Below are positions 83 to 59,614 of a DNA stretch of 64,000 nt, piece after piece; within the stretch, counting starts at the first letter, position 1; every line of letters begins with the position of its first letter. The notes beneath the pieces were generated by a model. The model was not told where the DNA came from, ran no database searches, and saw only the letters and a program-made list of their open reading frames with translations. The stretch covers positions 6,023 to 70,022 of the forward strand of contig JABDFA010000009.1 in assembly GCA_013286795.1 (NCBI GenBank), written 5' to 3'. The DNA comes from Candidatus Babelota bacterium. GTDB lineage: Bacteria; Babelota; Babeliae; Babelales; JABDEC01. A program made the position numbers and the translations under genes.

Positions 83-1024
83 ATGAATATATTTGTATTA
101 GATAAAAGGGCGATATTTGTATCGTCCTTAATTTTTTTAATGGTTATGTTTTCCAATGTTAACTGTCTAGAGTTATTGGTTAGAAAAATTAATATAGAGG
201 TAAACCTAAAATTAGTAGATGCTGTAAGTACTAATGATTTAAAGAAGATTCAAGAAGCATTAAAAGAGGGTGATGATCTTAATTGTGCAACTGGTTTTTA
301 TTTATTCTATAACTACAAGTCTATTATTAGTCATTGGTATTCAATTGACAGAGAGTCAGTAATATTTAAAGGTTCTGAATTATTATTGTATGCTATTGTG
401 TCTAGAAAATTTGATATAGCAAAATATTTGATTAAAGCTGGTGCGTCTATTGAAGATAAAGACCAATTTGCTTTTGATATAATTTTATTATCTTTTGCTA
501 CAGCGAAATCATATTTAGAGCTTCAAGAAGTAATTAATTTTTTATTTCTTGAATTAACAGTTGATATTAATGAGGTAAATAAAAATGGAAATAACTTGCT
601 AGACTTTGCTTGTTCACCTAGATACTTTGAAAATGAGCATTTAAAATTATATACATCAGCTTCGAACTTAGAATTTTTAAAATTTTTAGTTTTTAATGGT
701 CTTGATGTTTATGGAAAATGTTTTGCTAAATTAACAAAGGATCGCATTGAAGATATTGAGGAAGAGAGCGGTATTTTCAATTTTCTTAAGAAATTAAAAG
801 ATTTATTGAAGATCCGGAATGTTAGTTATAGGGATATGGTTTTAAAAATCAACTTTTATCTTAAAAATAAACTCGTTGCTATTTATCCTAAAGATTTGGG
901 TAATATAGTATTTGAATATGTTTATTATTCTGATAATTATAAAGATTTTTTTGAACTTTCAAATGAAGAAATTAATGATATTGTTGACCTTTACAAGCAA
1001 ATTATTGAGCAAAATGGAAAATAA
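83..1024 (+). CDS. ankyrin-repeat protein, N-terminal signal-like segment, C-terminal F-box-like motif
   Basis: ANK-like units ('GSELLLYAIVSRKFDIAKYLIKAGASIEDKD', 'NGNNLLDFACSP...LEFLKFLVFNGLDVYG'). Hydrophobic N-terminus 'IFVSSLIFLMVMFSNV'. Motif 'YPKDLGNIVFEY' at nt 884..919. Confidence 0.7.
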   Translation: MNIFVLDKRAIFVSSLIFLMVMFSNVNCLELLVRKINIEVNLKLVDAVSTNDLKKIQEALKEGDDLNCATGFYLFYNYKSIISHWYSIDRESVIFKGSELLLYAIVSRKFDIAKYLIKAGASIEDKDQFAFDIILLSFATAKSYLELQEVINFLFLELTVDINEVNKNGNNLLDFACSPRYFENEHLKLYTSASNLEFLKFLVFNGLDVYGKCFAKLTKDRIEDIEEESGIFNFLKKLKDLLKIRNVSYRDMVLKINFYLKNKLVAIYPKDLGNIVFEYVYYSDNYKDFFELSNEEINDIVDLYKQIIEQNGK

Positions 1025-1068
1025 AATTTTTATTTCTTAATTACTAGATCTAAAAAAGTTGATTTTCT

Positions 1069-1247
1069 CCGTTCGCCCTTAGCGACCTCTGAACGAGCGT
1101 TTACGCGAGTTGAAGAGGGAGTCGAATGGGTAATAATTTTTTAAGAATTTTATATTTTTGTATACAATATTTTTTTTAATTTAAGAAATCCATTCGACTC
1201 GGTCTTCGACTCCTTACGTCGCTCAGACCTCGCTCAGGACGAACGGG
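1069..1247. repeat. composite GC-rich inverted-repeat (MITE-like) element, copy 1 of 4
   Basis: Left arm 'ccgttcgcccttagcgacctctgaacgagcgtttacgcgagttgaagagggagtcgaatggg', AT-rich spacer, right arm 'ccattcgactc...tcgctcaggacgaacggg'. Same architecture at 32082, 39195 and 60154. Confidence 0.85.
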
Positions 1248-1398
1248 TTGGATGATTTTGCTCTATGAATATGTTATATTTTTATTAAAATAGTTATAAC
1301 ACATTTGCAAGAGATCTTAATCTAATTTTTTTAATCTATTGACTTGTATGATGTAAATAATTCAAAATATAAAAAGAGTTTTTTTAAAGGGAGTCTTA

Positions 1399-1875
1399 AT
1401 GCATAAAACTAGTATAGATATACCGGAGTTAAATAGGATAGCTCTGGTCGATTTATTGAATCAAACTTTAGCAAATATTACTGATTTGCAAATGGCAATC
1501 AAAAATGCTCATTGGAATGTTAAAGGCATGAACTTTATAGCTTTGCATAAATTTTTTGATGAAATTGCAGAAGAAGTAGAAAATCAAGTAGATATAGTAG
1601 CTGAACGAGTAACAAGTCTTGGTGGAACTGCTCTTGGTACATCGCAAGAGACTGTTAAAGGAACAAAATTAAAACCTTATCCAATAGATATTTTTGCAGG
1701 AAAAGATCATCTTGCACAATTAGCAGAGAGATTCGCTTTTTGTGGCAAAATGGCAAGAATAGATATGCAAAAATCTGAAGGCTTAGGTGATATGGCTACC
1801 AATGATGTTTACATTGATTTGACTAGGATGTTAGATAAGAATTTGTGGTTTATTGAAGCGCATTTACAAAATTAA
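1399..1875 (+). CDS. dps: Dps-family DNA-protection/ferritin-like protein
   Basis: 158 aa. 'AIKNAHWNVKGMNFIALHKFFDEIAEEVE' and 'LWFIEAHL' are typical Dps helices. RBS 'aaaggga' lies upstream. Confidence 0.85.
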   Translation: MHKTSIDIPELNRIALVDLLNQTLANITDLQMAIKNAHWNVKGMNFIALHKFFDEIAEEVENQVDIVAERVTSLGGTALGTSQETVKGTKLKPYPIDIFAGKDHLAQLAERFAFCGKMARIDMQKSEGLGDMATNDVYIDLTRMLDKNLWFIEAHLQN

Positions 1876-1902
1876 AAAAATAAAATAAAAAAGGATGAGT
1901 CT

Positions 1903-3525
1903 GTGAAGATTAAAATAGTTTTACTTTGTATAATTAGTGTTTTTAAAATATCTGATATTATAAGTGACTGTGAATGTTCTGTTCCCAATTTGAAATATAA
2001 GGGCAATAGGAGCATAGTAAAAATACGCGCAGCAGATTTTAATTATAATCCTGTTGTTGGAAATGCAGCTTACACAATTAATCAACCTGGAATTTATTAT
2101 CTTGAAGATTATGTAACAGCGTCTCCGGAAGTTGATAATCTTTCTTTAATTTATATAAATTCTAGTAATGTAAAATTGAATCTTAATTCTCTTGTTATTA
2201 CTCAAGATAGTAACCATTTTACAAAAAATATTAATGTTGTTGAAATAGCACCCAACGTTACTGATGTTAATATAACTAATGGAGTATTGCAAAATATTAA
2301 TGGTATCGGTGTAAAATCTAATTTAAATGTTAGTAATTTGTATGTATCTAATTTAGTTATAGATAAATTGACAAATTTGGGTATATATTTAAACAATGTA
2401 AGAAATGCAGTTTTATCACAATTCTGTGTAACAAATTGTAATGGATCTAATCCTAATTCTAGTGATGGGGCCGTATCTGGAAAATTACAGAACTGTTCTA
2501 ATATTCGCATATCAAATTCTTATTTTAATTCAAATATAGCGAATGACCTAAATACAGATTCTATAGGATTATTGATAGATAATTGCAGTAGTCTAAAACT
2601 AGAAAATTGTTCCTCTGTTCAGAATCAAGGTAAAAATGCTTATGGATTTGTTATTAGAAACAACTCATCTGCTTGTACTATAAATAATTGTTCCGTTTTG
2701 GGATGCCAGAGTAATAATGGAAGAGCTGTAGGATTCTTATTTGATAATTCATCTTCTAATTCTTTATTAGATTGTATTTCTGAATCTAATCAATCTGTAG
2801 GAGGAAATTGCGCCGGATTTAGTTTTGATGGACAAGCAGGTTACTATTTTTCAGCAAGGTTAAAAAATCTAAATATCATAAATTGTACATCAAAGAATAA
2901 TAAAGCTTTAGGTGCCTCTAACGATGCCTTTGGATTTTCAGGAAACCTTTTAGATTTTGCAATCTTTAGATCATGTAAAGCCATTTCTAATAGTTCAGCA
3001 GATGGCAATGTTTATGGATTTTATAGTGGTGCTGGAACCAATAACTATTTTGAGTCATGTTCAGCTCAAGACAATATTTCAGGTATAAATACAAATTCTG
3101 TTGTTTCAGGATTCGCTTTATTAAATGGTGAACAAAATAGTTCGATTAAAGAAAGCATATCTGTTAATAATTTTAGTTCATCTGGAGAATCCTATGGGAT
3201 ACGTTTAGGCTATAATACTGATACAAATACCCACGTCAATAATATCATTTATAAAAATTATATTGCTAATAATAAAGGCGGTTCTAAGCAGTATGGTTAT
3301 AGAGATTTTGCTTCTATTACTACAACTAACTTAATTGCTAATATTAGCTTTGGTCAGGGAAAAATAAATCCAAGTCCAATATCACAGCTTGTATTGACGA
3401 ATAATATGAATTATATGTTTACATTACCTTCAACTAAGGCTCCTGCTTATGTAGTTGTAGAAAGCAGCACTGGCGAAGTTGCTGAAATAAAAGTAAAACC
3501 GTTTGGTAATTTATCTGTATATTAA
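1903..3525 (+). CDS. secreted right-handed parallel beta-helix repeat protein (pectin-lyase-fold-like)
   Basis: GTG start and a signal-like N-terminus. Many ~22-25 aa N/S/C/G-rich rungs ('NCSNIRISNSYFNSN', 'NCSSLKLENCSSVQNQG', 'NNCSVLGCQSNNGRAVGF', 'FRSCKAISNSSADGNVYGF'). Confidence 0.6.
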   Translation: MKIKIVLLCIISVFKISDIISDCECSVPNLKYKGNRSIVKIRAADFNYNPVVGNAAYTINQPGIYYLEDYVTASPEVDNLSLIYINSSNVKLNLNSLVITQDSNHFTKNINVVEIAPNVTDVNITNGVLQNINGIGVKSNLNVSNLYVSNLVIDKLTNLGIYLNNVRNAVLSQFCVTNCNGSNPNSSDGAVSGKLQNCSNIRISNSYFNSNIANDLNTDSIGLLIDNCSSLKLENCSSVQNQGKNAYGFVIRNNSSACTINNCSVLGCQSNNGRAVGFLFDNSSSNSLLDCISESNQSVGGNCAGFSFDGQAGYYFSARLKNLNIINCTSKNNKALGASNDAFGFSGNLLDFAIFRSCKAISNSSADGNVYGFYSGAGTNNYFESCSAQDNISGINTNSVVSGFALLNGEQNSSIKESISVNNFSSSGESYGIRLGYNTDTNTHVNNIIYKNYIANNKGGSKQYGYRDFASITTTNLIANISFGQGKINPSPISQLVLTNNMNYMFTLPSTKAPAYVVVESSTGEVAEIKVKPFGNLSVY

Positions 3526-3530
3526 CCACA

Positions 3531-3560
3531 CCCCCGGTCATGGTGAGCCTGTCGAACCAT
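3531..3560. repeat. single GC-rich repeat arm ('cccccggtcatggtgagcctgtcgaaccat')
   Basis: Same module as 29377..29415 ('ccccccgcgctcgtggtgagcttgtcgaaccat'). It is the reverse of the 36564/46247 arms ('gctcgtatggttcg'). It contains the ATG used by ORF 3540. Confidence 0.8.
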
Positions 3561-4379: not shown

Positions 4380-4436
4380 GTGTGAAAAAGAATTTTGATC
4401 ATATATTAAATCTCTTTCTAAAAGTTGACTCTCTCT

Positions 4437-4618: not shown

Positions 4619-5569
4619 ATGTTCTTTATTTTGTTTAAGATAATTGATGTTTACTCTTTTTGTCCATTAAATAGAGCTGATTTGGTTCTGTTTTCTTATG
4701 ATAGACCATTGCAACTTTATTCTTTCCTTGAGTCTGTAAAAAAGTATATTTTTGGCATTGAAGAAATACATGTAATTTACCGTGTAAGTAATAATGAATT
4801 TGAATCTGGTTATGATATAGTAAAAAAAGATTTTGCTGATGTGATTTTTCACAAACAATTAAAAGCAGATGATTTTAAACCATTAACTCTTGAATCAATT
4901 TTTAATAATGGTTCTAGATATATAATCTTTGGTGTAGATGACATAATAGTTAAAGATTATGTAAATTTAGGTACATGCATTAATTATCTTGAAAAATCTA
5001 ATTCTTATGGTTTTTACTTACGCATGGGCAAAAATATTGTTGAGTGTTATATGCATTTTAATGAACCTACACCAGTTCCAAAAATGAACCAAATCTCCCC
5101 CCCGGTCACCCTGAGCGAAGCCCGTAGGGCGCAGTCGAATGGGTCTCCTGAGTATTTATTAACTAATGTGTATAATGGAGTCTTTCAGTGGTCATTAAAT
5201 GATGGTAAAGGCGATTGGAAATACCCCAATAATCTTGATATGACAATTTACAGAAAGTCTGATCTTAAACAACTTTATAATTACAATTTCCAAAATCCTT
5301 CTGCATTAGAAGCAGTTTGGGCAGATAATGCAAATTATAACCAAAGAGGGTTATGCTTTGAACAATCAAAGATCGTTAATCTTCCATTAAATTTGGTCAT
5401 AGATGAAGCTCGAAATTTAGATAATCGCAATTCTTCTCTTTTTAATACCAAAGAATTACTTGATAAATTTATGTCAGGATTCAAAATCGATATAAATAAA
5501 TTCTATAGAATCAATAACCTAGCACCCCATGCTGCAATTGTTCCTACATTTATTCCAAGAACAATCTAA
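4619..5569 (+). CDS. GT-A-fold-like putative glycosyltransferase carrying an in-frame repeat insertion
   Basis: 'LVLFSYDRPLQLYSFLESV' (GT-A beta1-alpha1-like) and 'YIIFGVDDIIV' (DxD-like). I chose the ATG at 4619 because the track's GTG at 4382 reads through repeat 4437..4586. No family assigned. Confidence 0.45.
   Translation: MFFILFKIIDVYSFCPLNRADLVLFSYDRPLQLYSFLESVKKYIFGIEEIHVIYRVSNNEFESGYDIVKKDFADVIFHKQLKADDFKPLTLESIFNNGSRYIIFGVDDIIVKDYVNLGTCINYLEKSNSYGFYLRMGKNIVECYMHFNEPTPVPKMNQISPPVTLSEARRAQSNGSPEYLLTNVYNGVFQWSLNDGKGDWKYPNNLDMTIYRKSDLKQLYNYNFQNPSALEAVWADNANYNQRGLCFEQSKIVNLPLNLVIDEARNLDNRNSSLFNTKELLDKFMSGFKIDINKFYRINNLAPHAAIVPTFIPRTI
5097..5143. repeat. short GC-rich repeat module inserted in frame in CDS 4619..5569
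   Basis: 'ccccccggtcaccctgagcgaagcccgtagggcgcagtcgaatggg' encodes 'PPVTLSEARRAQSNG'. A near-identical module in yidD (53553..53594) encodes 'PVTLSEARSAKSNG'. Confidence 0.85.
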
Positions 5570-6573
5570 CTTTCTTCTTCTCTTTCTTTATCTTCTTTTT
5601 CCTCTTTAGATTCTGGTTTTGTTTCCGGCATTTGCTCTGCTGCATATTCTGATATTATTCTTGCTAAATCCATAGGACAAGAAGTTGATTCTTCAATTTT
5701 TTGTGCACGTAATTCTTTAGCTCTATCAAATAACCTTAATATAACAGGAGGAAGCTTTTTCTTATAATTTGGGTAATATTTAAGAATCTTATTTTCATCA
5801 AATTTTGCATTCTTGCACAGAAGAGTTCTTATTGTATTTATAAATTTATTTAGTGTTCTTTTCGAATAATTGAAATATGTTAAATCAATTATTATTTGTT
5901 CTAATGGTGTGAATTCTCCGACAATGTTGTAAGGGTTTCCTGTGCCCTTTGTGGTAAATCGTTCACTGGTTTCATCATCAACATATACTGCTAGACTGTT
6001 AACATCAGCTCCATGATTAATTAAATATTCAGCAATTTTTAAATTGGTTTTTGGTGAAACAATGGCCGTGTTAAGAGGTGTTAGGAGTTTCATGTCTCCA
6101 TAGGGTAGATTCCCATTAATATTTGCTTTATGTTCTTCTACTAACTCTTTTACAATATCCAATCTATTTAATTTAACTGCTGTACGTAATGTTTCGCCAA
6201 AATAAGTATCAGATCTTGCTCCTTTTCTTATTAACTGCATTAATAGAGAAAGTTTTTTTGTAGGATCTTTTTTTAGTCTATTATAGTGAGTAATGATATT
6301 CACCATTTCATTATCAAGTATTTGTTTATACAAAATAATAAGTGGCATTATATTAAGATTTAGCAACACATTATGAAACTCTCTTTTATTTTTAAGAAAA
6401 TTTTGTTTTAGTTTTTCAAGAACTTGATTTCCTGGAGCAATTTGCTTATTTTCGAGATAATTTTCTATAAAAGGTATGAGTTTATAAGGATTTTCTTCAG
6501 TACCAATACTTAATAATATATTAGAAAAGGAACCAAAAAGTATGGTAATTAAAGTGATTTTAAATTTATTCAT
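5566..6573 (-). CDS. ankyrin-repeat protein with signal-like N-terminus, F-box-like motif and acidic tail
   Basis: ANK units ('LRTAVKLNRLDIVKELVEEHKANING', 'TPLNTAIVSPKTNLKIAEYLINHGADVNS'). 'CPMDLARIISEY' lies near the C-terminus, followed by the tail 'KPESKEEKEDKEREEES'. Confidence 0.7.
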   Translation of the reverse strand: MNKFKITLITILFGSFSNILLSIGTEENPYKLIPFIENYLENKQIAPGNQVLEKLKQNFLKNKREFHNVLLNLNIMPLIILYKQILDNEMVNIITHYNRLKKDPTKKLSLLMQLIRKGARSDTYFGETLRTAVKLNRLDIVKELVEEHKANINGNLPYGDMKLLTPLNTAIVSPKTNLKIAEYLINHGADVNSLAVYVDDETSERFTTKGTGNPYNIVGEFTPLEQIIIDLTYFNYSKRTLNKFINTIRTLLCKNAKFDENKILKYYPNYKKKLPPVILRLFDRAKELRAQKIEESTSCPMDLARIISEYAAEQMPETKPESKEEKEDKEREEES

Positions 6574-29560: not shown

Positions 29561-30316
29561 GTGAAATTTTTACCAAAAACATTAATTTTTGCGTTATCAG
29601 TGACTTCAGGTATGCAAGCTATGCAGGAAGTTAAAAGGGAAGCTGAAAATAAAGAAGTTGTTGAACTAAGAGAGTTGCAAAAAAGGTTTCCTAGTTCTGT
29701 TAAATTCTTAATTAAAGTCTTAGGCGCACAAAAAGATAAGAAAAAAACCTTATTAGATAGGATTAATCCATTTGCAAAGTGTGAGTCTAGAGTAATAAAA
29801 AATGGTTTGCCTGACGATCTAATCATTAAGATCATTAACAATTATTTATGGATAGATAAAGTAAAATCTATTCCTCGAAATCGTATTATTAATTTGCAGG
29901 ATATAGCCGGTTTTGTAATAACAGGATCCTCTGATTTTGGTAAAACTGATGATATTGAAGGCATGCTTGTATATCCACCAGGTATGGGAGATCAATATGA
30001 TTATATGTCTGGAAATATAGATACATCATGCTATCGTTTTATATTTTACAAATGGGTTCCTCAACCATTCTGTAGGGATTTAAATAGTCCTAGAACATGT
30101 AGAAGTGGCGTTTCTCATAGTTTTAAATTTATGGGCTATTCTGTGTTAGATATAAATTCGAATCTAGATACATATGTTAATAATTTAAAAGAATTGATAA
30201 CTAAAGTTGAAGATGATCCTAAAATTGTTGTTGGTTTAGTGGTTTTGATGGGGGTAACTTATTTGGCAAGTACATCTGGAATAACTTATTATATTTTAAA
30301 AAAATTAAGAAAATAA
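29561..30316 (+). CDS. membrane-anchored protein with N-proximal F-box-like motif
   Basis: GTG start and signal-like 'LIFALSVTSGMQA'. 'GLPDDLIIKIINNYLW' fits F-box helix 1. C-terminal TM 'IVVGLVVLMGVTYLASTSGITYYIL'. Confidence 0.5.
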   Translation: MKFLPKTLIFALSVTSGMQAMQEVKREAENKEVVELRELQKRFPSSVKFLIKVLGAQKDKKKTLLDRINPFAKCESRVIKNGLPDDLIIKIINNYLWIDKVKSIPRNRIINLQDIAGFVITGSSDFGKTDDIEGMLVYPPGMGDQYDYMSGNIDTSCYRFIFYKWVPQPFCRDLNSPRTCRSGVSHSFKFMGYSVLDINSNLDTYVNNLKELITKVEDDPKIVVGLVVLMGVTYLASTSGITYYILKKLRK

Positions 30317-34181: not shown

Positions 34182-35072
34182 GTGAATATAAAACATGTTT
34201 TAATTGTAATTGTCTTTTTACTTGTAGAATCAACAGATTGTATGATTGAGTTAGAAACCCCGGCCAACCAGCTTTTCAGGGGAGCGCAAGAAGGAAAATT
34301 GGGTTTAGTTAAAAGTGCGTTAGATGCTCGCGTGGATGTCAATGTTACAAGAAAAGACAGAGTTGAAATTGACGTTTCTTATGAAGGATTTACACCATTG
34401 ATGCACGCTGCAGAATATGGCCAAGATGAAATAGTTAAATATTTATTAAAAGCTAAAGCTCATATCAATCAACGAAATGAATATGGTGATACTGCATTAA
34501 GAATTGCAGCTGGTTCTAGAGTTATAGGAACATCTGAAGTTGTTCAAATTTTACTGAATGCAAAAGCTAATCCAAATTTAGTGGAATCCTGGACTGGGAC
34601 TACAGCACTGAGCGCTACAAGAAATATTGAAATGATTCAGCTTTTATTGCAATTCAAAGCGGACCCGAATATTAGGCATAAAGATAGCTCTACATTTTTG
34701 ATGGATTTATTTGAAGAGGATAGCTGCAAGGAAAATTTAGTTGATATATTATTAAAAGTTGGAGCAGATGTTAATTTGCAAGACTCTACGGGTATGAATG
34801 TTCTTATGAGGGCAATGTGCCGAAGTTATTGTAATAAAAAAACTATAATTAAATTTCTTAAAGCAGGTATAAATTTATTGCAAGTTGATATGTGGAAAAA
34901 CAATGTCTTAAGTTATATGAAGCGATATAAAATAACTGATCAATTTATAAAAACTTTGATTGAACGTTTGATTGTTCAACAAAAAAGACAGGTTAAAGGT
35001 GAAATTAGTAAACATTTGCTACCAGATTTGGCAAATATTGTTTTTGAATATTTAATTAATCTAGATATTTAA
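34182..35072 (+). CDS. ankyrin-repeat protein with signal-like N-terminus and C-terminal F-box-like motif
   Basis: ANK units ('GFTPLMHAAEYGQDEIVKYLLKAKAHINQRNEYGDTALRIAA'). 'LLPDLANIVFEYL' at nt 35016..35054. Confidence 0.8.
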   Translation: MNIKHVLIVIVFLLVESTDCMIELETPANQLFRGAQEGKLGLVKSALDARVDVNVTRKDRVEIDVSYEGFTPLMHAAEYGQDEIVKYLLKAKAHINQRNEYGDTALRIAAGSRVIGTSEVVQILLNAKANPNLVESWTGTTALSATRNIEMIQLLLQFKADPNIRHKDSSTFLMDLFEEDSCKENLVDILLKVGADVNLQDSTGMNVLMRAMCRSYCNKKTIIKFLKAGINLLQVDMWKNNVLSYMKRYKITDQFIKTLIERLIVQQKRQVKGEISKHLLPDLANIVFEYLINLDI

Positions 35073-40999: not shown

Positions 41000-42481
41000 T
41001 TACTCTTCTGGTATAATTATTTTGCTGATTTCATTTTCCAATATAGTTGTTCTTTTTTTCGAATTATAAACTAATTCTCCATTTTTGAGTTGTATTAATT
41101 TTGAAATTGTATGTATGTTTTCTTCAATAGTTTGAATGCAAACATATTGATCATCTATTAGCTTCCATATTTTTATTTTATTGTCAGACCCAAAAGAAGC
41201 TAATGAACCATCTTGTAATTGAATTACTTGATTGACCCAATATTCATGTTCTTGCAAAGTTTGGAAACAATAATATTTGCCATCTTTTATTTTCCATATT
41301 TTTATAGTTTGCCAGGCACAAGTGATCAGTGATCCATCATCTAACTGAATTAAATTTGAAACATCATGAAGCATGTGATCATTTACAATTTGAAACCAAC
41401 TATATTGATTATCTTTTAATTTTAATATTTTTATTGTGTTATTGTGTGAAGAAAAAGCAAAAACTATAGAATTATCTGATAATGGAATTAATTTTCCAAT
41501 TTTGTGGGGATATTCAATTGTTTGATAAAGAACATATTTATCACCTATTAATTTCCATATTTTTATTTTTTTATCTTCTGAAACAGAGATTAGTAGTTTA
41601 TTTGATAACTCTATTAATTTAAGAATTCTATTAACATGGTCAGTTTGGAGTATTTGATGAAGATAATAATGATCATTTCTTAGCCGCCATATTTTTATTG
41701 TATGATTTTCTTGCGAATGAACTAAAGAACCATCTTGTAATTGTATTAGATTGTAAGCACTATTGTATATTTTTTTACAACAACTAAACAAACAACACAT
41801 AAATGGATTACCTAAAATAGAACAAATGTTTCTATTAAGAGTTTGTAGAAGTGTTACTACATCTTCCTTGATAGATAATATTCTTATTGTTCCATCTATA
41901 CTGAGATAAGCATAGTTATTATTATTTAATTTAATTAGATTAAATAGAGGATATTTTTCAGTAATGGTAGCAGGAAAACACAGTAAAGTGCAACATACGA
42001 CATTTCTTATTACTGTATTTTCATGTTCAAGGCTATCTATACCTTGATTATACTTCTTGGTTTTTTTTATTAATTTCCACATAGAGAAACCATATCGACT
42101 GTTGGCTATAAATGAATCATTGCTTAAAGGGATGATTTCACTAATAAAATCTAAATTTTGGAGTAAAGAAAAAGTTTTATCTAAGCCATGAGTATAATCG
42201 TAATCTACAACAATTTGGCTTATTTCTGGTATTAAATATGAGTTTAACTTTTTTTTTATAAACTGGTTTATTAAATCTATCTTTGTGAGAGTTTTTTTCT
42301 TGTCTTTTTTTTGTAGCTCTAATACTTCTTTCTCATCAGTATCTGTATCGATTTTTACTTCTTGTTCATACTTGCTATCTGGTTCAGATGGTAAAATTGA
42401 ATATGACTCATGGTCATGCATTGCTGAAATGTTGAAGGTGAATGTTGTGAGTAAAAATATTTTTCTAAATAACTTGTTCAT
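41000..42481 (-). CDS. WD40-repeat protein with signal-like N-terminus and N-proximal F-box-like motif
   Basis: WD-type strand ends 'HTIKIWRL', 'KKIKIWKL', 'NTIKILKL', 'QTIKIWKI', 'NKIKIWKL'. 'LIPEISQIVVDYDY' near the N-terminus. Cys clusters 'VVCCTLLCF' and 'FMCCLFSCCKK'. Confidence 0.75.
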   Translation of the reverse strand: MNKLFRKIFLLTTFTFNISAMHDHESYSILPSEPDSKYEQEVKIDTDTDEKEVLELQKKDKKKTLTKIDLINQFIKKKLNSYLIPEISQIVVDYDYTHGLDKTFSLLQNLDFISEIIPLSNDSFIANSRYGFSMWKLIKKTKKYNQGIDSLEHENTVIRNVVCCTLLCFPATITEKYPLFNLIKLNNNNYAYLSIDGTIRILSIKEDVVTLLQTLNRNICSILGNPFMCCLFSCCKKIYNSAYNLIQLQDGSLVHSQENHTIKIWRLRNDHYYLHQILQTDHVNRILKLIELSNKLLISVSEDKKIKIWKLIGDKYVLYQTIEYPHKIGKLIPLSDNSIVFAFSSHNNTIKILKLKDNQYSWFQIVNDHMLHDVSNLIQLDDGSLITCAWQTIKIWKIKDGKYYCFQTLQEHEYWVNQVIQLQDGSLASFGSDNKIKIWKLIDDQYVCIQTIEENIHTISKLIQLKNGELVYNSKKRTTILENEISKIIIPEE

Positions 42482-42489
42482 TTGGTTTA

Positions 42490-44004
42490 TTACTCTTCTG
42501 GTATAATTATTTTACTGACCTCATTTGTCCATATTTTGCTTATATCGTCTAATGAGGAAGAAACCAATTCTCCATTCTTTAATTGAATCAATTTATGAAT
42601 TCCTATCCTACGGCCGTCAAAAGTCTGATCTAAAACATATTGGCCATCTACAATTTTCCATATTTTTATTGTGGAATCACTTGAATAGGATGCAAGTGAA
42701 TTGTCTTGTAATTGGATTATACCATTAACCCAATCTGTAATTCCACTTGTACGATGTTTCAAAGTTTGGGAACAAGAATATTTACCATCTTTTAAATTCC
42801 ATATTTTTATATCTTGCCAAGAGCATGAAACTAGAGATCCATCTGGTAATTGGGTTAAATTTAAAACAAAATTTGTATGATCGTTTAAAATTTGAACACA
42901 ATTAAATTGGCCATTTTTTGATTTTAAGATTCTTATTGTGCTATCATCTGCATAAGCAAAAAATACATCTTTTGCTTCGGTTTTTAGTGAAATTAACTTT
43001 CTAATGAGATCCGTGTGTTCAATTGTTTGATAAAGACAATATTGATCATCTACTAAATTCCATATTTTTATTTTTTTATCAAATGAAACAGATATTAACA
43101 TTTGATTAGGTAATTCTAATAAACTAAAAATTTCTTCAGTATGACCAGTCGGTAGAGTTTGATGAAGATAATATTTATCATCTCTTAGTCGCCATACTTT
43201 TATTGTATGATCTTCTTTTATGGAATGTACAAGAGTTCCATCTTGAAGTTGGGTTAAGTTTGTAGCTGTATCGGTTCCTTTTTTGGATATACGTTTTCGT
43301 AATTTGGGAATACAACTTCCACAGTTCACCAATGCATTAAAGGGATTATTTAAATAATAACATAAATTTTTGTTAAGAGTTTGAAGATTAGTATAAGTTT
43401 CATTGTGAATTGCGCCTATACGTATTGTTCCGTTTGTTTTAAGATATGCAAATAAGCCGTTATTTAATTTGATTAAATTATAGTCTTTACTATAAGGGAA
43501 ACAACATAACAAACAACACAAAATTGAATAACTCAGACGTATTGTTGCATCACAGTCATTGTACCATTCTCGATTTACTTTTTCGTATTTACCCGTTTTT
43601 TTTCGTAATTTCCATATTCTATAATCATCCATATATGTATCATATTGTATAAATGAATTATTATTGAGAGGTATTATTTCAGAGGTAAAATTCAAAGTTT
43701 GAGATAAATAATATGTTTTATCTAAGCCATGAGTGTAGTCATAGTCTACAACAATTTGGCTTAATTCCGGTATTAAATGTGAGTTTAACTTTTTTTTTAT
43801 AAACTGGTCTATTAAATCTATCTTTGTGAGAGTTTTTTTCTTGTCTTTTTTTGATAATTCTAACGTTTCTTTTTCATCAACATCTATGTCGATTTTTACA
43901 TCTTGTTCAGATGGTAAAATTGAATATGACTCATGGTCATGCATTGCTGAAATGTTAAATGGTAAAATTGTTAGTAAAAATATTTTTTTAAATAACTTGT
44001 TCAC
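42490..44004 (-). CDS. WD40-repeat protein, tandem paralog of 41000..42481
   Basis: The N-terminal ~90 aa are nearly identical to the neighbour ('FNISAMHDHESYSILPSE', 'KKDKKKTLTKIDLI', 'LIPELSQIVVDYDYTHGLDKT'). WD ends 'HTIKVWRL', 'KKIKIWNL', 'QDIKIWNL', 'STIKIWKI'. Cys cluster 'ILCCLLCCF'. Confidence 0.75.
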   Translation of the reverse strand: MNKLFKKIFLLTILPFNISAMHDHESYSILPSEQDVKIDIDVDEKETLELSKKDKKKTLTKIDLIDQFIKKKLNSHLIPELSQIVVDYDYTHGLDKTYYLSQTLNFTSEIIPLNNNSFIQYDTYMDDYRIWKLRKKTGKYEKVNREWYNDCDATIRLSYSILCCLLCCFPYSKDYNLIKLNNGLFAYLKTNGTIRIGAIHNETYTNLQTLNKNLCYYLNNPFNALVNCGSCIPKLRKRISKKGTDTATNLTQLQDGTLVHSIKEDHTIKVWRLRDDKYYLHQTLPTGHTEEIFSLLELPNQMLISVSFDKKIKIWNLVDDQYCLYQTIEHTDLIRKLISLKTEAKDVFFAYADDSTIRILKSKNGQFNCVQILNDHTNFVLNLTQLPDGSLVSCSWQDIKIWNLKDGKYSCSQTLKHRTSGITDWVNGIIQLQDNSLASYSSDSTIKIWKIVDGQYVLDQTFDGRRIGIHKLIQLKNGELVSSSLDDISKIWTNEVSKIIIPEE

Positions 44005-45404: not shown

Positions 45405-46166
45405 ATGGAGGCTTTGATTATGAATTTTAATTTAAAGTTATTACTAATTTTATCTGTTTTTGGTTCAGTAACCAGCTTGTCATATTCTGCAGAAGCCAAA
45501 GAAAAGTCGGAAAATCCTATTTTTTATCAAATTCGTGATAGATTGATGGATAATCTTAGTCCTGAGATAGGCAACCACAATGCAGTAGGTAGAGCAGAAT
45601 ATTATGATACAGTAAGCAAATTTCTTGAAGAAAATCCAGAAAGTATAAATATTAGAGATTCTCAAGGAAGAACATTATTAATGCACATTGTTGAAGCAGC
45701 TTTACGCGCTGGTGATGTTATTAATATGTTTCAGGACCGTAGCTATCAGCCTGGTTATTTGCATATTACAGATGAAAATGATCCTTTGCAACGGTTATTT
45801 AAGGTTAATGAAGATTTATTTAGAAGAGGAATGTCTGATTCTCCAATCGTAGTAGAGAATGGTAAATTGATAAGAGAAGGTAAACTAAATAGAGTCGTGG
45901 ACGATCGTATTAATTTGATAGATACTATATTTTTACTTTTAGACAAAGGAGCTGATTTGAAGGCTAAAGACAATAAAGGCAAGACAGCATTTGATTATAC
46001 TATTTTTAATATGGTACTCAGGAGAAAAGGTGGGGTATATCATTGGGAGGATAATTTTGTTCAATCAATTTTAAATTCAGCCCAAGAAGAGCGAAATGAA
46101 GAAATTAGAAAGGTATTAGAAGGAAAGATGCTTGGAGATTTAGCGAATATTGTTTGTGAGTATTGA
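45405..46166 (+). CDS. ankyrin-repeat protein with signal-like N-terminus and C-terminal F-box-like motif
   Basis: 'DSQGRTLLMHIVEAALRAGD' and 'IFLLLDKGADLKAKDNKGKTAFDY'. The protein ends 'LGDLANIVCEY'. Confidence 0.7.
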   Translation: MEALIMNFNLKLLLILSVFGSVTSLSYSAEAKEKSENPIFYQIRDRLMDNLSPEIGNHNAVGRAEYYDTVSKFLEENPESINIRDSQGRTLLMHIVEAALRAGDVINMFQDRSYQPGYLHITDENDPLQRLFKVNEDLFRRGMSDSPIVVENGKLIREGKLNRVVDDRINLIDTIFLLLDKGADLKAKDNKGKTAFDYTIFNMVLRRKGGVYHWEDNFVQSILNSAQEERNEEIRKVLEGKMLGDLANIVCEY

Positions 46167-53526: not shown

Positions 53527-53804
53527 ATTTAATAAAACAACTTTTACCCTTTCCGGTCACCCTGAGCGAAGCACGTAGTGCGAAGTCGAATGGGTTTACT
53601 ACCTTTATAAAAAAACTTTTACTTGATATAATTCTAGTCTTAAGACCCTTATTTGCACCCCAAGGTGCATGTAAATATTTGGTTTCTTGCACAGATTTTG
53701 CAAAAATTGAACTTGAAGAAAAAACCTTTATTTACGCTTTTCTTTCTATTTTAAAACGAGTTTTATCTTGTCATCCCTTTTCAAAAACTAGTAATATCCA
53801 GTAA
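53523..53804 (+). CDS. yidD: membrane protein insertion efficiency factor YidD with repeat-derived N-terminal insertion
   Basis: 'CKYLVSCTDFAKIELEE...LKRVLSCHPF' matches the YidD core (C.F.P.CS.Y......RCHP). Residues 9..25 ('PFPVTLSEARSAKSNGF') are encoded by repeat 53553..53594. Confidence 0.8.
   Translation: MNLIKQLLPFPVTLSEARSAKSNGFTTFIKKLLLDIILVLRPLFAPQGACKYLVSCTDFAKIELEEKTFIYAFLSILKRVLSCHPFSKTSNIQ
53553..53594. repeat. 42-bp GC-rich repeat module inserted in frame in yidD
   Basis: 'ccggtcaccctgagcgaagcacgtagtgcgaagtcgaatggg'. Sister copy at 5097..5143. Confidence 0.85.
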
Positions 53805-54450
53805 TTATATCTGCCAGTTCCTTAGGAATTTTTTCTTCAAGAAGATTATCTTTGATAAGTTTTTTTCTTCTTTCAGGTTCAGTTTCCAGTAAATTTTTTA
53901 TAAGACCAAAATTTCTTTTCATCAACATTTTTGTGACTTCAGGTAGGGTCACATTATAAGGATAAATATCCCAATTTTTATTAGCTTGTTCATTTGCTAT
54001 ATCTAAAGCTGTTTCATCATAATCATTTTTTAAACTTAAATCAGCGCCTGCTTGAAGTAATGCTTTTACAATTTCTAGATTGCCTAAATGTACAGCATGC
54101 ATTAAAGCAGTTATACTCATTCCACCTTTAATATTTGGATCAGCATTGGTATCTAATAATAATTTTATTAAATTAACAATCTCTTCTGGTGTAAAATCTC
54201 TATCATTAATATTGATTACATCTACAGTAGGTGATTTTGATATAAGTATTAAAGCAGTATCGCCAAAATAATCTTTTGCATTTACATTTGCACCTCTTTT
54301 TAAAGCGCTTTTTATTAGCTCTATATCAAAATTTTTTGCGCCTTCAAAAAGCATTTCATAAGGGCTTTTTGTCGGTTTTGCACTCATGCATTGAGTTGAT
54401 TTTGCAAATGTTAAACAAAGAATCGAAATTAATAAATATTTATTTTTCAT
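53788..54450 (-). CDS. ankyrin-repeat protein with signal peptide and C-terminal F-box-like motif
   Basis: 'GDTALILISK', 'GMSITALMHAVHLGNLEIVKALLQAGADLSLKNDYDETALDIA'. Ends 'IPKELADIITGYY'. Confidence 0.8.
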   Translation of the reverse strand: MKNKYLLISILCLTFAKSTQCMSAKPTKSPYEMLFEGAKNFDIELIKSALKRGANVNAKDYFGDTALILISKSPTVDVININDRDFTPEEIVNLIKLLLDTNADPNIKGGMSITALMHAVHLGNLEIVKALLQAGADLSLKNDYDETALDIANEQANKNWDIYPYNVTLPEVTKMLMKRNFGLIKNLLETEPERRKKLIKDNLLEEKIPKELADIITGYY

Positions 54451-55040
54451 GATAACTTCATTTCTTTAGGTTCTTTTGAAAAAGCAGCATATTCAGAAAC
54501 TATTTCTGCTAAATCTAGAATTAAAGATGAATATTCAGCGATTTCTTTTTGTATAGCTAATCTTTTGAGTCTTCTTTTCTCGGCAGTTTTGTTTATTACA
54601 TTTTCTAATAAAGCTTTTTTTCTAGGATTTAATTTTTTTGCAATAATTAAAGCAGTTTCATTATTTTCATTTTTGATATTTGGATCTGCATAAGCATCTA
54701 ATAATAATTCAAAAATATTTCTATGGATGTCTTTTCTTCTTGCAGCTTTCATTAAAGGGGTTTCTCCAGAATTATCTTGTATATTTGGATCTGCACCGGC
54801 ATCTAGTAGTAATTTAATCATATCATCATCCCTACGAATCACTGCCATTATTAAAGGCGTAGTACCCCCTCCAAAATTAATATTGACATCAGCGCCTCTA
54901 TATATTGCATCCCTGACTGATTTAACATTGCCTCGTATTACATGGCACGAATCAATTTCAACATCTTTATTGCTCATGCTATTAACATATTCTGCAAATG
55001 TTAGACAAATAATCGGAATTAATAAATATTTAGTTTTCAT
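54447..55040 (-). CDS. ankyrin-repeat protein with signal peptide and C-terminal F-box-like motif
   Basis: 'GGTTPLIMAVIRRDDDMIKLLLDAGADPNIQDNSGETPLMKAA'. 'LILDLAEIVSEY' lies near the C-terminus. 4-nt overlap with 53788..54450. Confidence 0.8.
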   Translation of the reverse strand: MKTKYLLIPIICLTFAEYVNSMSNKDVEIDSCHVIRGNVKSVRDAIYRGADVNINFGGGTTPLIMAVIRRDDDMIKLLLDAGADPNIQDNSGETPLMKAARRKDIHRNIFELLLDAYADPNIKNENNETALIIAKKLNPRKKALLENVINKTAEKRRLKRLAIQKEIAEYSSLILDLAEIVSEYAAFSKEPKEMKLS

Positions 55041-58410: not shown

Positions 58411-58572
58411 TTTAATAATTTTAAAATAATTAACAAAAATATTTTTTTTTAGTAAAAAATGTTAAATTTTTTTTCAAAATTGTTGACTTTTAAAAACTTC
58501 AATTAGTAACATATTAATGAGATGTGAAAAAAGGAAGTGTAGTAAGTGTCCTAATAAAAAAGGAGGCCCGAT

Positions 58573-58710
58573 ATGGCAGTAAAAAGGAAAACAGCAAAAA
58601 GAGCAGGAGCTAGAAAAAGCGCAGCTAAAAAAACTGTTGCTAGAAAATCTGTAAAAAGAAAATCTACAGCAAAAAGATCAGCTGCTAAGAAATCTGCAAA
58701 AAGAAGATAA
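58573..58710 (+). CDS. 45-aa Lys/Ala/Arg-rich histone H1-like basic protein (absent from the ORF track)
   Basis: Hand translation 'MAVKRKTAKRAGARKSAAKKTVARKSVKRKSTAKRSAAKKSAKRR'. Strong RBS 'aaaaggagg' 7-8 nt upstream. A hairpin with T-run lies downstream. Confidence 0.6.
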   Translation: MAVKRKTAKRAGARKSAAKKTVARKSVKRKSTAKRSAAKKSAKRR

Positions 58711-58736
58711 GCTCTTTTTCAAGATACTTTTAATAT

Positions 58737-58771
58737 AAGGCGCTATAATTTTTATGGTGCCTTATTTTTTT
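58737..58771 (+). terminator. candidate intrinsic terminator after the H1-like gene
   Basis: Stem 'aaggcgc' (58737..58743) pairs with 'gtgcctt' (58757..58763, one G-U). It is followed by 'atttttttt'. Confidence 0.45.
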
Positions 58772-58867
58772 ATTCTACTACGCCAGAAAACCCAAGCTTT
58801 TAAGCTAGAGATGGAATAGCTTCGAAGAATTTCGCGCAATACAACGGCTTAGAAGCCGTTGAGCGCT

Positions 58868-59614
58868 TCATACCACAAACTCCATTTCTTCATCTTCTTC
58901 AATTTCTTCAGGTTTAGGCTTACTTTGTTCCCCAACAACATAATCTGTTATTATATCACTAATCCCTTTTTCAGTAATATTTGTTTGTTTTATTGTATCC
59001 CAGATAGTTAACCTTATTTTTGCCGGCCAATTTACTAAAATTTCTTTAACTTCTTTTCTTCTTTCAGAAAGTGTATACATATTGGCTTGATCTATTGCTA
59101 TTTGAGTGCAACTTTTATTATTTCTATCTTTTATATTGGCATCTGCCCCTGCTAATAATAGAGCTTCTACTATTTTTGGATATGCACTTTCAATTGCAGA
59201 CATGAGTGCAGTATTGCCATTGTGATTTTTTGCATCTATTTTTGCTTTGGCATTAATCAAAAGCATAACTGCGTCATAATTATCTTGTATACATGCTCTC
59301 ATTAGAGGCGTAAAACCATCATAAATTTCTTCCTTGCCTACATTTGCTCCACTTTTTATTAAAAACTCAATAATTTTAATGTCTGCTTCAGCATTAAATG
59401 CATGTTCAAGAACAGGTATACCAATTTCATCATCTTGGCAATTTACATCAGCTCCCATAAATACTGCTGTTTGAGCCATAATTAAATTATTGGTTTTTAC
59501 TGCTTTTAGAAGCATAATTTTCGCTATATCTTGTACTTTATTATCCATTGAATAAATAAAAGATAAGTGAGTGAAAATAAGTGTGCTTATAAGAATGAGT
59601 TTGATTTTATTCAT
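58868..59614 (-). CDS. ankyrin-repeat protein with signal peptide, weak F-box-like motif and acidic tail
   Basis: 'GFTPLMRACIQDNYDAVMLLINAKAKIDAKNHNGNTALMSAIESAYPKIVEALLLAGADANIKD'. 'GISDIITDYVVG', then 'PEEIEEDEEMEF'. Confidence 0.8.
   Translation of the reverse strand: MNKIKLILISTLIFTHLSFIYSMDNKVQDIAKIMLLKAVKTNNLIMAQTAVFMGADVNCQDDEIGIPVLEHAFNAEADIKIIEFLIKSGANVGKEEIYDGFTPLMRACIQDNYDAVMLLINAKAKIDAKNHNGNTALMSAIESAYPKIVEALLLAGADANIKDRNNKSCTQIAIDQANMYTLSERRKEVKEILVNWPAKIRLTIWDTIKQTNITEKGISDIITDYVVGEQSKPKPEEIEEDEEMEFVV

What the first reader, a model, noticed from the sequence alone, without database searches (positions are those of the whole stretch)
83..59614. A shared short F-box-like motif links ankyrin, WD40 and membrane proteins
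I found P-x-[DE]-L-[AS]-x-I-[IV]-x-[EDG]-Y or close variants in ten proteins. C-terminal in ANK proteins: 'YPKDLGNIVFEY' (83..1024), 'CPMDLARIISEY' (5566..6573), 'LLPDLANIVFEYL' (34182..35072), 'LGDLANIVCEY' (45405..46166), 'IPKELADIITGYY' (53788..54450), 'LILDLAEIVSEY' (54447..55040), 'GISDIITDYV' (58868..59614). N-proximal in both WD40 proteins: 'LIPE[IL]SQIVVDY'. In the membrane protein 29561..30316: 'GLPDDLIIKIINNYL'. This matches helix 1 of the F-box (LP.E[IL]...I..YL). WD40 with an N-terminal F-box is the canonical eukaryotic SCF substrate-receptor layout. ANK with a truncated C-terminal F-box is the poxvirus PRANC layout. This suggests a family of effectors that hijack host SCF ubiquitin ligases.
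Basis: partly seen in the sequence, partly recalled or inferred. Interest (0 to 1): 0.75.

Follow-up and report, generated by a model that had tools for sequence, protein, structure and literature searches.

The report
Shared docking helix on secreted repeat proteins
Nine ankyrin and WD40 proteins, each with a signal-peptide-like N-terminus, in this piece of a Dependentiae (TM6) bacterial genome share a real, non-random 13-residue helix; it looks a little like the first helix of an F-box but fails every test for being one, so it is best read as a new, narrowly distributed docking handle whose partner is unknown.

Summary
The motif is real. A relaxed pattern finds 9 sites, all in the named ORFs and frames, where 0.05 are expected by chance. 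A 13-column HMM scores them at 13-17 bits; the next-best site scores 5.5. The tenth case (29561-30316) is a one-residue-longer variant that the HMM does not recognise.

The window comes from a Babeliales/Dependentiae bacterium. The motif sits on 9 of its 11 ANK/WD40 proteins and on none of 40 others. All carriers have signal-peptide-like N-termini.

With relatives, the consensus is [YH]-L-[PI]-[KP]-D-L-[SA]-[ND]-I-[VI]-x-[ED]-Y. It forms the last helix of a ~40-residue helix-turn-helix. The module is C-terminal in ANK proteins and lies directly before the propeller in WD40 proteins. It also occurs at the N-terminus of signal-peptide-less ORFan families on virus-like contigs.

Only about 20 of 1.84 billion protein clusters match. 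No Pfam or NCBIfam family matches, including F-box, PRANC, SOCS, LisH and RIIa.

Profile-profile similarity to F-box helix 1 is weak (P=0.005). It is no better than the similarity to LisH or RIIa helices. Nothing resembling F-box helices 2 and 3 follows.

F-box membership is therefore not met. A one-helix adaptor mimic like poxvirus CP77 remains possible but untested.

The parts
83..1024 (+). ANK protein (313 aa) with a signal-peptide-like N-terminus. Motif 'IYPKDLGNIVFEY' at 881-919 (aa 267-279). Module at about 800-919. A second, degenerate copy 'EEINDIVDLY' at 965-994.
5566..6573 (-). ANK protein (335 aa), signal-peptide-like N-terminus. Motif 'SCPMDLARIISEY' at 5644-5682, followed by a 25-aa acidic tail.
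   Evidence: ortholog P0146 keeps the motif
34182..35072 (+). ANK protein (296 aa), signal-peptide-like N-terminus. Motif 'HLLPDLANIVFEY' at 35013-35051, 6 aa from the C-terminus.
45405..46166 (+). ANK protein (253 aa), signal-peptide-like N-terminus. Motif 'KMLGDLANIVCEY' at 46125-46163; the protein ends at the Tyr.
53788..54450 (-). ANK protein (220 aa), signal-peptide-like N-terminus. Motif 'KIPKELADIITGY' at 53794-53832, 1 aa from the C-terminus. The AF2 model has helices 168-190, 192-205 and 210-219 (the motif) after the last ANK repeat.
54447..55040 (-). ANK protein (197 aa), signal-peptide-like N-terminus. Motif 'SLILDLAEIVSEY' at 54489-54527.
58868..59614 (-). ANK protein (248 aa), signal-peptide-like N-terminus. 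Motif 'ITEKGISDIITDY' at 58940-58978, preceded by 'NWPAKIRLTIWDTIK', the helix-A signature shared with P0150, P0153 and P0155.
41000..42481 (-). WD40-type 8-blade propeller protein (493 aa). Order: signal-peptide-like N-terminus, acidic/Lys-rich linker, helix A (aa 67-82), motif helix 'YLIPEISQIVVDY' (42200-42238, aa 82-94), first beta-strand at aa 105.
42490..44004 (-). Paralogous WD40 protein (504 aa, 57% identical by BLASTP). Motif 'HLIPELSQIVVDY' at 43741-43779.
29561..30316 (+). Doubtful tenth member: 251-aa protein with a signal-peptide-like N-terminus and a C-terminal TM helix. 'GLPDDLIIKIINNY' at 29804-29845 is a one-residue-longer variant that the motif HMMs do not recognise.

Best explanation
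The motif is the last helix of an autonomous, portable helix-turn-helix handle of about 40 residues. An upstream amphipathic, basic helix is followed by a short turn, often with Pro, and then by D-L-[SA]-x-I-[IV]-x-[ED]-Y. The handle has been grafted onto the C-terminus of ankyrin-repeat proteins and onto the N-terminal side of WD40 propellers in a Babeliales (Dependentiae) intracellular bacterium.

Proposed mechanism (inferred, not shown):
- The repeat domain binds a host target.
- The handle presents one conserved face (Leu, Ile, Ile/Val and Tyr, flanked by two acidic residues and one small residue).
- That face plugs every family member into one common host partner, so the proteins act as two-part adaptors.
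- The most specific candidate partner is a cullin-RING adaptor such as Skp1. In that case the handle works like a helix-1-only F-box (as reported for cowpox CP77) without being a recognisable member of the F-box or PRANC families.

Shown: the motif, its modularity, its association with ANK/WD40, its helix-turn-helix prediction and its narrow distribution. Inferred: export to the host, the docking role and the partner.
For: Non-random and specific:
- 9 sites found against 0.05 expected.
- Clean HMM separation.
- Present on 9 of 11 ANK/WD40 proteins and 0 of 40 other ORFs in the window, Fisher p=1.8e-8.

Modular:
- The same element is C-terminal on ANK proteins and N-proximal on WD40 proteins.
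- It sits at the extreme N-terminus of small ORFan families and occurs in tandem pairs (P0147, P0154; degenerate second copy at 965-994).

Under selection:
- It is kept in WD40 relatives that are only 30-43% identical.
- In P0084, on a syntenic contig of another lineage (44% GC), the rest of the N-terminus is unalignable but the motif remains.
- Conservation is at the protein level, not the DNA level.

Structure: AF2 predicts helix-turn-helix, then the propeller at once in the WD40 protein. In the ANK protein it predicts three helices after the last repeat, with motif-helix pLDDT of 83-89.

Host-side action:
- Copies without signal peptides occur on contigs with eukaryote/virus-type genes (SBDS, zf-C2H2, YqaJ) and on an ORFan-rich contig.
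- Dependentiae ANK proteins with signal peptides are thought to be secreted into the host (PMC6561590, PMC4378268).

F-box-like working:
- hhalign places the motif on F-box helix 1 in the Leu-Pro register, P=0.0049.
- The layouts mirror FBXW and PRANC proteins.
- A helix-1-only F-box is reported to bind Skp1, and most Skp1 contacts come from helix 1 and the preceding loop (PMC4353913).
Against: - No partner is known and nothing here tests binding.
- Every family test failed (Pfam, NCBIfam, PDB profile searches).
- The similarity to F-box helix 1 is no stronger than that to LisH or RIIa helices, so it may only reflect a Pro-capped amphipathic helix.
- The minimal poxviral consensus PHI-P-x2-PHI-x3-PHI occurs 31 times in the window proteome and fits only 3 of the 9 sites.
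- The carriers have Sec-type signal peptides, and no route from the periplasm to the host cytosol is established for this phylum.
- The virus-like nature of contigs L085 and L088-L090 is inferred from gene content only.
- I could not inspect model coordinates, so I do not know whether the conserved face is exposed or buried.
Confidence: 0.4

Rival explanations
1. Self-association module: the helix-turn-helix pairs with a second copy to form a four-helix bundle, as the RIIa dimerisation/docking domain or the LisH motif do. This would make the ANK and WD40 proteins dimeric or let family members heterodimerise.
For: - hhalign to RIIa gives P=0.011-0.013. The register match to helix II ('PPDLVEFAVEYF') is perfect: P, D, L, PHI, PHI, E, Y, PHI. 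In the ANK proteins helix A starts 'WP.KL', like RIIa 'IPPGL'.
- hhalign to LisH gives P=0.011-0.036.
- A conserved small residue and an invariant Tyr are typical of tight helix-helix packing.
- Two short helices cannot bury their own core.
- LisH plus WD40 is a common eukaryotic layout (established knowledge).
Against: - No Pfam RIIa, Dpy-30 or LisH hit in 28 isolated modules.
- Helix A is about 3 residues shorter than in RIIa and very basic.
- In LisH the matching helix comes first, not second.
- Tandem copies within one protein (P0147, P0154) fit a linear docking motif better than a dimer domain.
Confidence: 0.2
2. Bona fide, homologous F-box/PRANC domain: the proteins are true members of the F-box superfamily.
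For: - Resemblance to 'LPK[DE]L..I[IV]..Y', and hhalign register and P=0.0049.
- The +1 variants 'LPDDLIIKIINNYL' and 'LPNDISKYIISEYL' fit LPxE[IL]xxxI[LF]xxL exactly and lie beside canonical copies.
- The domain layouts match.
- Bacterial F-box-WD40 proteins do exist (P0042 on a bacterial contig).
Against: - No Pfam F-box, F-box-like or PRANC match.
- No helices 2 and 3 and no conserved Trp. The tail is only 0, 1 and 6 residues in three of the seven ANK proteins (0-34 overall), and a beta-strand starts within about 10 residues in the WD40 proteins.
- The Pro position is variable or the Pro is absent.
- An F-box HMM does not pick out the sites.
- A conserved upstream helix is not part of an F-box.
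Confidence: 0.1
3. Bacterial sorting, secretion or anchoring signal: after Sec export the handle is recognised by a Dependentiae-specific export, vesicle-loading or surface-tethering factor.
For: - All nine window carriers, and most relatives, have signal-peptide-like N-termini.
- The WD40 proteins have a long disordered linker after the signal peptide, like tethered surface proteins.
Against: - About 17 other ORFs in the window with signal-peptide-like N-termini lack the motif, including collagen-like proteins, candidate outer-membrane proteins (no family hit), glycosyltransferases and two ANK proteins.
- The position differs (C-terminal versus N-proximal).
- The motif occurs in proteins without signal peptides on virus/eukaryote-like contigs.
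Confidence: 0.1
4. Passive structural cap, or a relic of common ancestry, with no function of its own.
For: AF2 places the motif helix with fair confidence next to the repeat domains. ANK stacks and propellers often carry capping helices.
Against: - The same helix flanks two unrelated folds and several ORFan domains, at either end, and in tandem.
- The closest ANK homologues elsewhere lack it.
- The ANK carriers are only 21-34% identical overall, yet the motif is nearly invariant.
Confidence: 0.1

Closest known systems
F-box (Pfam PF00646/PF12937) and its truncated poxviral/Orientia form PRANC (PF09372), especially the helix-1-only F-box of cowpox CP77
   Same: Short Leu-Pro-capped amphipathic helix with an acidic residue and Leu/Ile spacing. 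It sits N-terminal to WD40 and C-terminal to ANK, in parasites of eukaryotic cells. hhalign aligns it to F-box helix 1 (P=0.0049).
   Different: No HMM match. No helices 2 and 3 and no conserved Trp. Pro is variable. The invariant Ile and Tyr fall on variable F-box positions, while the conserved F-box positions 10 and 13 are variable here. A conserved upstream helix is added. The carriers have Sec signal peptides.
RIIa dimerisation/docking domain (PF02197) of PKA regulatory subunits and ciliary proteins
   Same: Helix-turn-helix of about 40 residues. The second helix, 'P-x-D-L-x-x-PHI-PHI-x-E-Y-PHI', matches the motif register exactly. Both helices start with P-x-x-L. hhalign P=0.011-0.013.
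   Different: No Pfam match. The first helix is about 3 residues shorter and highly basic. No evidence of dimerisation. RIIa domains are N-terminal in eukaryotic cytosolic and ciliary proteins.
LisH motif (PF08513), often N-terminal to WD40 propellers
   Same: 'L-x-x-[LI]-I-x-[DE]-Y-L' is identical in spacing to the motif core. The layout next to WD40 is the same.
   Different: The matching LisH helix is the first of two, and the 'G-[YF]-x-x-[TA]-A' second helix is absent. No Pfam match; hhalign P=0.011-0.036.
SOCS box / Elongin BC box (ASB, WSB, VHL; poxviral ANK/BC proteins)
   Same: A short C-terminal helix on ANK proteins that recruits a cullin-RING ligase. The viral versions are truncated to the critical residues (PMC6232478).
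   Different: The BC-box consensus [TSP]-L-x3-[CSA]-x3-PHI is not met. The small-residue position is Ile or Val in 33 of 36 copies. hhalign P=0.13-0.38.
Signal-peptide-bearing ankyrin-repeat effectors of Dependentiae (Babela massiliensis, Chromulinavorax destructans)
   Same: Same phylum-level biology: many ANK proteins with Sec signal peptides, assumed to act on the host (PMC4378268, PMC6561590).
   Different: Those papers describe no shared terminal motif. Eight related Dependentiae loci searched here contained none.

Membership tests
F-box (PF00646 / PF12937) | Significant match to the family HMM | tested here: not met
   No F-box or F-box-like hit at E<=10 in the 10 window proteins, 10 relatives or 28 isolated modules. 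A genuine bacterial F-box-WD40 protein (P0042) carries PF12937 in the same database.
F-box (PF00646 / PF12937) | Three-helix unit of about 40-50 residues (H1-H2-H3) with a conserved Trp in H3 | tested here: not met
   Only 0, 1, 6, 13, 23, 25 and 34 residues follow the motif in the ANK proteins, and these tails are low-complexity. In the WD40 model the motif helix (85-93) is followed by a 4-residue helix and then strands from residue 105.
F-box (PF00646 / PF12937) | L-P-x-E-[IL]-x3-I-[LF]-x2-L signature of helix 1 | tested here: inconclusive
   hhalign aligns the motif to helix 1 (P=0.0049, 16 columns; 0 of 300 column shuffles reach the score). Against this: Pro sits at two registers (14 and 8 of 36) or is absent, and the hydrophobic register is shifted by one. 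An F-box HMM gives at most 0.3 bits at motif sites. LisH and RIIa score similarly.
F-box (PF00646 / PF12937) | Binds Skp1 and assembles into SCF | not testable with these tools
   No complex prediction with outside sequences was possible and no experiments were done.
PRANC (PF09372) | Match to the PRANC HMM; two-helix truncated F-box at the C-terminus of ANK proteins | tested here: not met
   No PRANC hit. The C-terminal position after ANK is met for 7 proteins. There is no room for a second helix in 45405-46166 (0 aa), 53788-54450 (1 aa) or 34182-35072 (6 aa). Foldseek against the viral library gives only generic ANK matches.
Elongin BC box / SOCS box (PF07525) | [TSP]-L-x3-[CSA]-x3-PHI helix, plus a Cul2 or Cul5 box | tested here: not met
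   The pattern matches none of the motif sites. The residue before Leu is D, E, V or G, and the small-residue position is V or I in 33 of 36 copies. hhalign against ASB9, ASB7 and SOCS2 gives P=0.13-0.38. No Pfam hit.
LisH (PF08513) | Two-helix motif with L..lI..YL followed by G[YF]..[TA]A; family HMM match | tested here: not met
   No Pfam hit. Only the first-helix pattern is present (hhalign P=0.036 for all modules and 0.011 for ANK modules). No second helix follows.
RIIa dimerisation/docking domain (PF02197) | Helix-turn-helix of about 38 residues matching the family HMM; forms an X-type dimer | tested here: inconclusive
   No Pfam hit. hhalign gives P=0.013 and 0.011, to helix I or helix II separately. 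The predicted secondary structure is helix-turn-helix. Dimerisation could not be tested.
Ankyrin repeat / WD40 repeat proteins (host domains of the motif) | Family HMM matches above Pfam cut-offs | tested here: met
   Six of the seven ANK carriers reach an Ank-family gathering score. 45405-46166 is just below it (Ank_5 26.7 vs 27 bits, E=7.4e-06). Both propeller proteins exceed the WD40 cut-off. The AF2 models match DARPins and 8-blade propellers.

The most novel reading that the evidence does not exclude
The module is a previously undescribed, minimal 'one-helix box'. It would be a hub-docking motif exchanged between Dependentiae secreted effectors and giant-virus-like ORFan families that share protist hosts. 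It would turn ANK, WD40 and other domains into substrate receptors for a host ubiquitin-ligase adaptor (Skp1 or another), and it would be invisible to current F-box, PRANC and SOCS profiles.
Probability: 0.3. Interest if true: 0.7.

Novelty: new variant of a known kind. Interest (0 to 1): 0.5.

Why it matters
Dependentiae devote around a tenth of their genes to host-interaction candidates, most prominently ANK proteins with signal peptides, and no mechanism is known for these. A conserved, transferable handle gives a direct experimental entry point. One peptide can be used as bait to find the common partner, and one mutation can disable a whole effector family. If the partner is a cullin-RING adaptor, this would extend the truncated F-box / BC-box strategy of poxviruses and Orientia to a new phylum. 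It would also show that current domain profiles miss such minimal mimics. If the partner is something else, or if the module is a dimeriser, it still defines a new small module shared between bacterial and virus-like parasites of protists.

Tried and rejected
- A word-indexed homology search with the 10-module alignment found nothing; short profiles do not suit that tool.
- The ThrRS-anchored scan of GTDB genomes identified the phylum. The 8 related Dependentiae loci held no motif, and the window's own genome is not in that collection.
- Viral-contig scans with the motif alignment, P0149 and P0154 gave no confirmed relatives. A YqaJ query from L089 gave only two weak IMG/VR matches.
- The closest ANK homologues elsewhere lack the motif.
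- Foldseek searches of both AF2 models returned only generic ANK or WD40 folds and say nothing about the module.
- The SOCS/BC-box idea, prompted by the ASB layout, was rejected on pattern and profile.
- The clathrin-box, dileucine, LIR and YxxPHI short-motif readings were rejected by eye, because the required positions are not conserved.
- A DNA-level repeat or gene conversion was rejected.
- Counts of the mimivirus early-promoter octamer did not classify the virus-like contigs.
- I did not use the metagenome scan. Any pattern loose enough to cover the family would give thousands of chance matches.


Full report
**What the window is.** The window is 29% G+C, gene-dense and bacterial. It encodes DnaE, ArgRS, ThrRS, EF-Ts, PyrH, Frr, trigger factor, TrxB, SSB, GrpE and two tRNAs. 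A ThrRS-based scan of one genome per GTDB species gave best relatives at 63-66% identity. All of these are Candidatus Dependentiae / Babeliales MAGs or a Dependentiae isolate genome. The window's proteins also occur on a 74.8-kb NCBI/JGI contig and in Logan assemblies of run SRR8433578. About half of the ORFs start with a signal-peptide-like segment by my own heuristic. This fits what has been reported for Dependentiae: 44% of CDS and 78% of ANK proteins in Chromulinavorax (PMC6561590), and 79 of 126 ANK proteins in Babela (PMC4378268).

**Checking the observation.**
- The literal pattern fits only two sites. The relaxed core [LI][AGS].I[IV].[EDG]Y hits nine times, always in the named ORF and frame and never in the other frames.
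- Residue shuffles give a mean of 0.05 hits and a maximum of 2 in 2,000 trials.
- A 13-column HMM of the nine sites scores them at 13-17 bits against all six-frame segments; the next best score is 5.5 bits.
- The tenth case ('LPDDLIIKIINNYL', 29561-30316) has one more residue inside the helix. It is not detected by this HMM or by a later 36-sequence HMM. Its N-terminal region is not significantly similar to that of the WD40 proteins (E=1.8). I treat it as a possible distant variant, because a similar +1 form sits beside a canonical copy on contig L085.
- Codons at identical residues agree only 59% of the time, so the conservation is at the protein level and not from a DNA repeat.

**Association with domains.** Pfam finds Ank families in nine window proteins and WD40 in two. 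The motif is on seven of the nine ANK proteins and on both WD40 proteins. It is on none of the 40 other ORFs (Fisher p=1.8e-8). The two ANK proteins without it are a GT2-ANK fusion (6678-7898) and a 158-aa ANK protein (30402-30878). About 17 other ORFs with signal-peptide-like N-termini lack it, so it is not a general export tag.

**Extent and anatomy.**
- Aligning the regions shows a conserved amphipathic, basic helix about 10-15 residues upstream, giving a module of about 40 residues.
- AF2 of the WD40 protein 41000-42481 (29-sequence alignment, mean pLDDT 77) predicts helix 67-82, the motif helix 85-93, a 4-residue helix, and then beta-strands from residue 105.
- AF2 of the ANK protein 53788-54450 (mean pLDDT 86) predicts three helices after the last repeat. 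The last is the motif, with pLDDT 83-89.
- I could not inspect coordinates. Foldseek returned only generic ANK and 8-blade WD40 matches.

**Relatives.**
- WD40 homologues at 30-43% identity keep the motif at the same place: P0023 'HLLPDLSQIVFDY', P0024 'HLIGVLSDLVLGY', P0025 'HLIDELSNLVIEY'.
- P0084 'CLPKELTELIAQY' lies on a 44% G+C contig that shares the GrpE / 417-aa protein / 165-aa protein neighbourhood with the window. In P0084 the rest of the N-terminus is unalignable.
- Contigs from the same sample hold a tandem array of about nine propeller paralogs with 'YLPKDLANIVHEY', 'HLPKVLSDIVQEY', 'YMPKVLGDLVLEY' and similar. They also hold ANK C-termini such as 'LLGDLNEIVCDY'.
- An exhaustive profile search of 1.84 billion cluster representatives found only 20 clusters at E<=0.001, one of which is an LRR false positive.
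- New members include three signal-peptide ANK proteins ending '...NWP.KL+..IK.E...HL[IP]PDL..I..DY'.
- Other new members are proteins without signal peptides that begin with the module: P0149, P0152, P0147 and P0154 (the last two with two tandem copies).
- P0154 lies in an array of about 200-aa ORFan paralogs that all start with the module (L088). P0147 lies on marine contigs that encode SBDS, C2H2 zinc-finger, YqaJ and GT41 proteins (L089, L090). From gene content alone these look viral or eukaryote-associated.
- From 36 copies the consensus is [YH]-L-[PI]-[KP]-D-L-[SA]-[ND]-I-[VI]-x-[ED]-Y, with Tyr in 34 of 36 and Ile/Leu in 36 of 36.
- The refined HMM separates members (>=9.6 bits) from 1.67 million residues of six-frame background (<=8 bits). 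The exception is one chance look-alike in two Fervidobacterium loci.

**Is it an F-box?** Tests of membership were negative.
- No Pfam F-box, F-box-like or PRANC hit at E<=10 in 10 window proteins, 10 relatives or 28 isolated modules. No Pfam family was hit by more than one module. NCBIfam gave nothing for the module.
- Module profiles searched against all PDB sequences returned unrelated proteins (TrpRS, MraW). An F-box consensus returned 36 F-box chains.
- An HMM built from five verified F-boxes did not rank the motif sites within the window proteome; the best score was 0.3 bits.
- There is no room for helices 2 and 3.

Tests of resemblance gave a weak signal. hhalign of the 22-module profile against the F-box profile aligned 'LpkdLs~IV~eY' to 'lP~ela~~ils~l' of helix 1 with P=0.0049. 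The score of 15.5 compares with 5.4 +/- 1.1 (maximum 9.8) for 300 column shuffles. The same procedure gave P=0.011-0.036 for LisH (GID8, LIS1), P=0.011-0.013 for RIIa (RII-alpha, Sp17) and nothing for SOCS boxes (P=0.13-0.38). The resemblance to F-box helix 1 is therefore real but not specific. It is at the level of a Pro-capped amphipathic helix.

The invariant positions (Ile 9 and Tyr 13 of the consensus) fall on variable F-box positions. The proline occupies two registers or is missing in about a third of copies. The minimal poxviral consensus PHI-P-x2-PHI-x3-PHI (PMC6232478) occurs 31 times in the window proteome and fits only three of the nine sites. The BC-box pattern fits none.

A review of poxviral ANK proteins states three things (PMC4353913). 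The poxviral F-box has only two of the three helices. CP77 binds Skp1 with effectively only helix 1. Most Skp1 contacts come from helix 1 and the loop before it. Absence of helices 2 and 3 therefore rules out membership, but it does not rule out a CP77-like way of working. The pairing with ANK and WD40 domains is what an adaptor-docking box would look like. So are the tandem copies and the occurrence without signal peptides on virus-like contigs.

**Conclusion.**
- The motif is a genuine, narrowly distributed, portable helix-turn-helix handle on the ANK and WD40 effector candidates of a Babeliales bacterium.
- The best single mechanism is docking of these repeat proteins to one common host partner, with Skp1-type cullin-RING adaptors as the lead candidate (confidence about 0.4).
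- Self-association through an RIIa/LisH-like bundle is the main rival (0.2).
- True F-box homology, a bacterial sorting signal and a passive structural cap are each about 0.1.
- None of the papers I searched or read on Dependentiae mention the motif.

Noticed in passing
window 11076-22665 (- strand): Three tandem paralogs of about 1,285 aa, each with a signal-peptide-like N-terminus. Each has about 700 residues of G-x-T/G-T-T collagen-type triplets (Pfam Collagen, E=5.5e-76) and a C-terminal '[13 protein letters not shown]' repeat region with a weak FG-GAP hit. G+C is about 40% here against 29% in the rest of the window.
   Followed up: partly
window 3540-11091: A cluster of glycosylation genes next to the collagen-like genes. 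It includes a DXD sugar-binding glycosyltransferase with a weak TcdA/TcdB-type hit (3540-4379), a GT2 fused to C-terminal ankyrin repeats (6678-7898), a family-6 glycosyltransferase (7979-8773, E=2e-49; a family otherwise typical of animals) and a methyltransferase. Several unassigned ORFs with signal-peptide-like N-termini lie among them.
   Followed up: partly
window 28315-29198 (- strand): Two adjacent paralogous Cys-rich proteins of about 140-150 aa with repeated C-x3-C / C-x2-C spacing in predicted helices. No Pfam hit at E<=0.001.
   Followed up: no
L084 (Logan SRR8433578 contig, 95-11550): A tandem array of about nine WD40-type propeller paralogs. Most have a signal-peptide-like N-terminus and the motif directly before the propeller. 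One is a WD40-ANK fusion of 618 aa. This is a large lineage-specific expansion in what is probably the same genome as the window.
   Followed up: partly
L088 5789-9690 and 11861-13483; L089 10001-10339 and 2041-2262; L085 37-471 and 1402-1836: The same motif sits at the extreme N-terminus of tandem ORFan paralogs on contigs whose gene content looks viral or eukaryote-associated (SBDS, zf-C2H2, YqaJ, GT41; otherwise ORFans). These proteins have no signal peptide, and the motif is sometimes duplicated. In one protein it is at the C-terminus. This suggests exchange between bacterial and virus-like parasites of protists.
   Followed up: partly
window 965-994 (in ORF 83-1024); L082 3538-4164: Some ANK carriers have a second, degenerate copy about 20 residues after the first ('EEINDIVDLY'; 'QEIDEIINIY').
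   Followed up: no
window 29804-29845; L085 37-471: A one-residue-longer form of the helix ('LPDDLIIKIINNYL', 'LPNDISKYIISEYL') fits the F-box helix-1 spacing exactly. The motif HMMs do not recognise it, and its relation to the canonical form is unresolved.
   Followed up: partly
window 50221-50296 and 50574-50661: tRNA-Lys(CTT) and tRNA-Leu(TAG). The mechanical ORF 50580-52001 (trigger-factor-like by eye) starts inside the tRNA-Leu gene, so its real start must be downstream.
   Followed up: no
PDB 1m6y (MraW/RsmH residues 140-159); loci L053 and L057 (Fervidobacterium): Chance look-alikes of the motif in housekeeping proteins ('EELARIIFEY', 'IKDLSDIAYEY', up to 13 bits). They show the limit of specificity of a 13-15-column model.
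   Followed up: no
window 41000-44004 and relatives: The propellers use an unusual repeat signature ('LIQLQDGSLAS...IKIW'). AF2 and Foldseek place them with 8-bladed propellers (ODA16, NLE1/Rsa4) rather than the 7-bladed FBXW type.
   Followed up: partly
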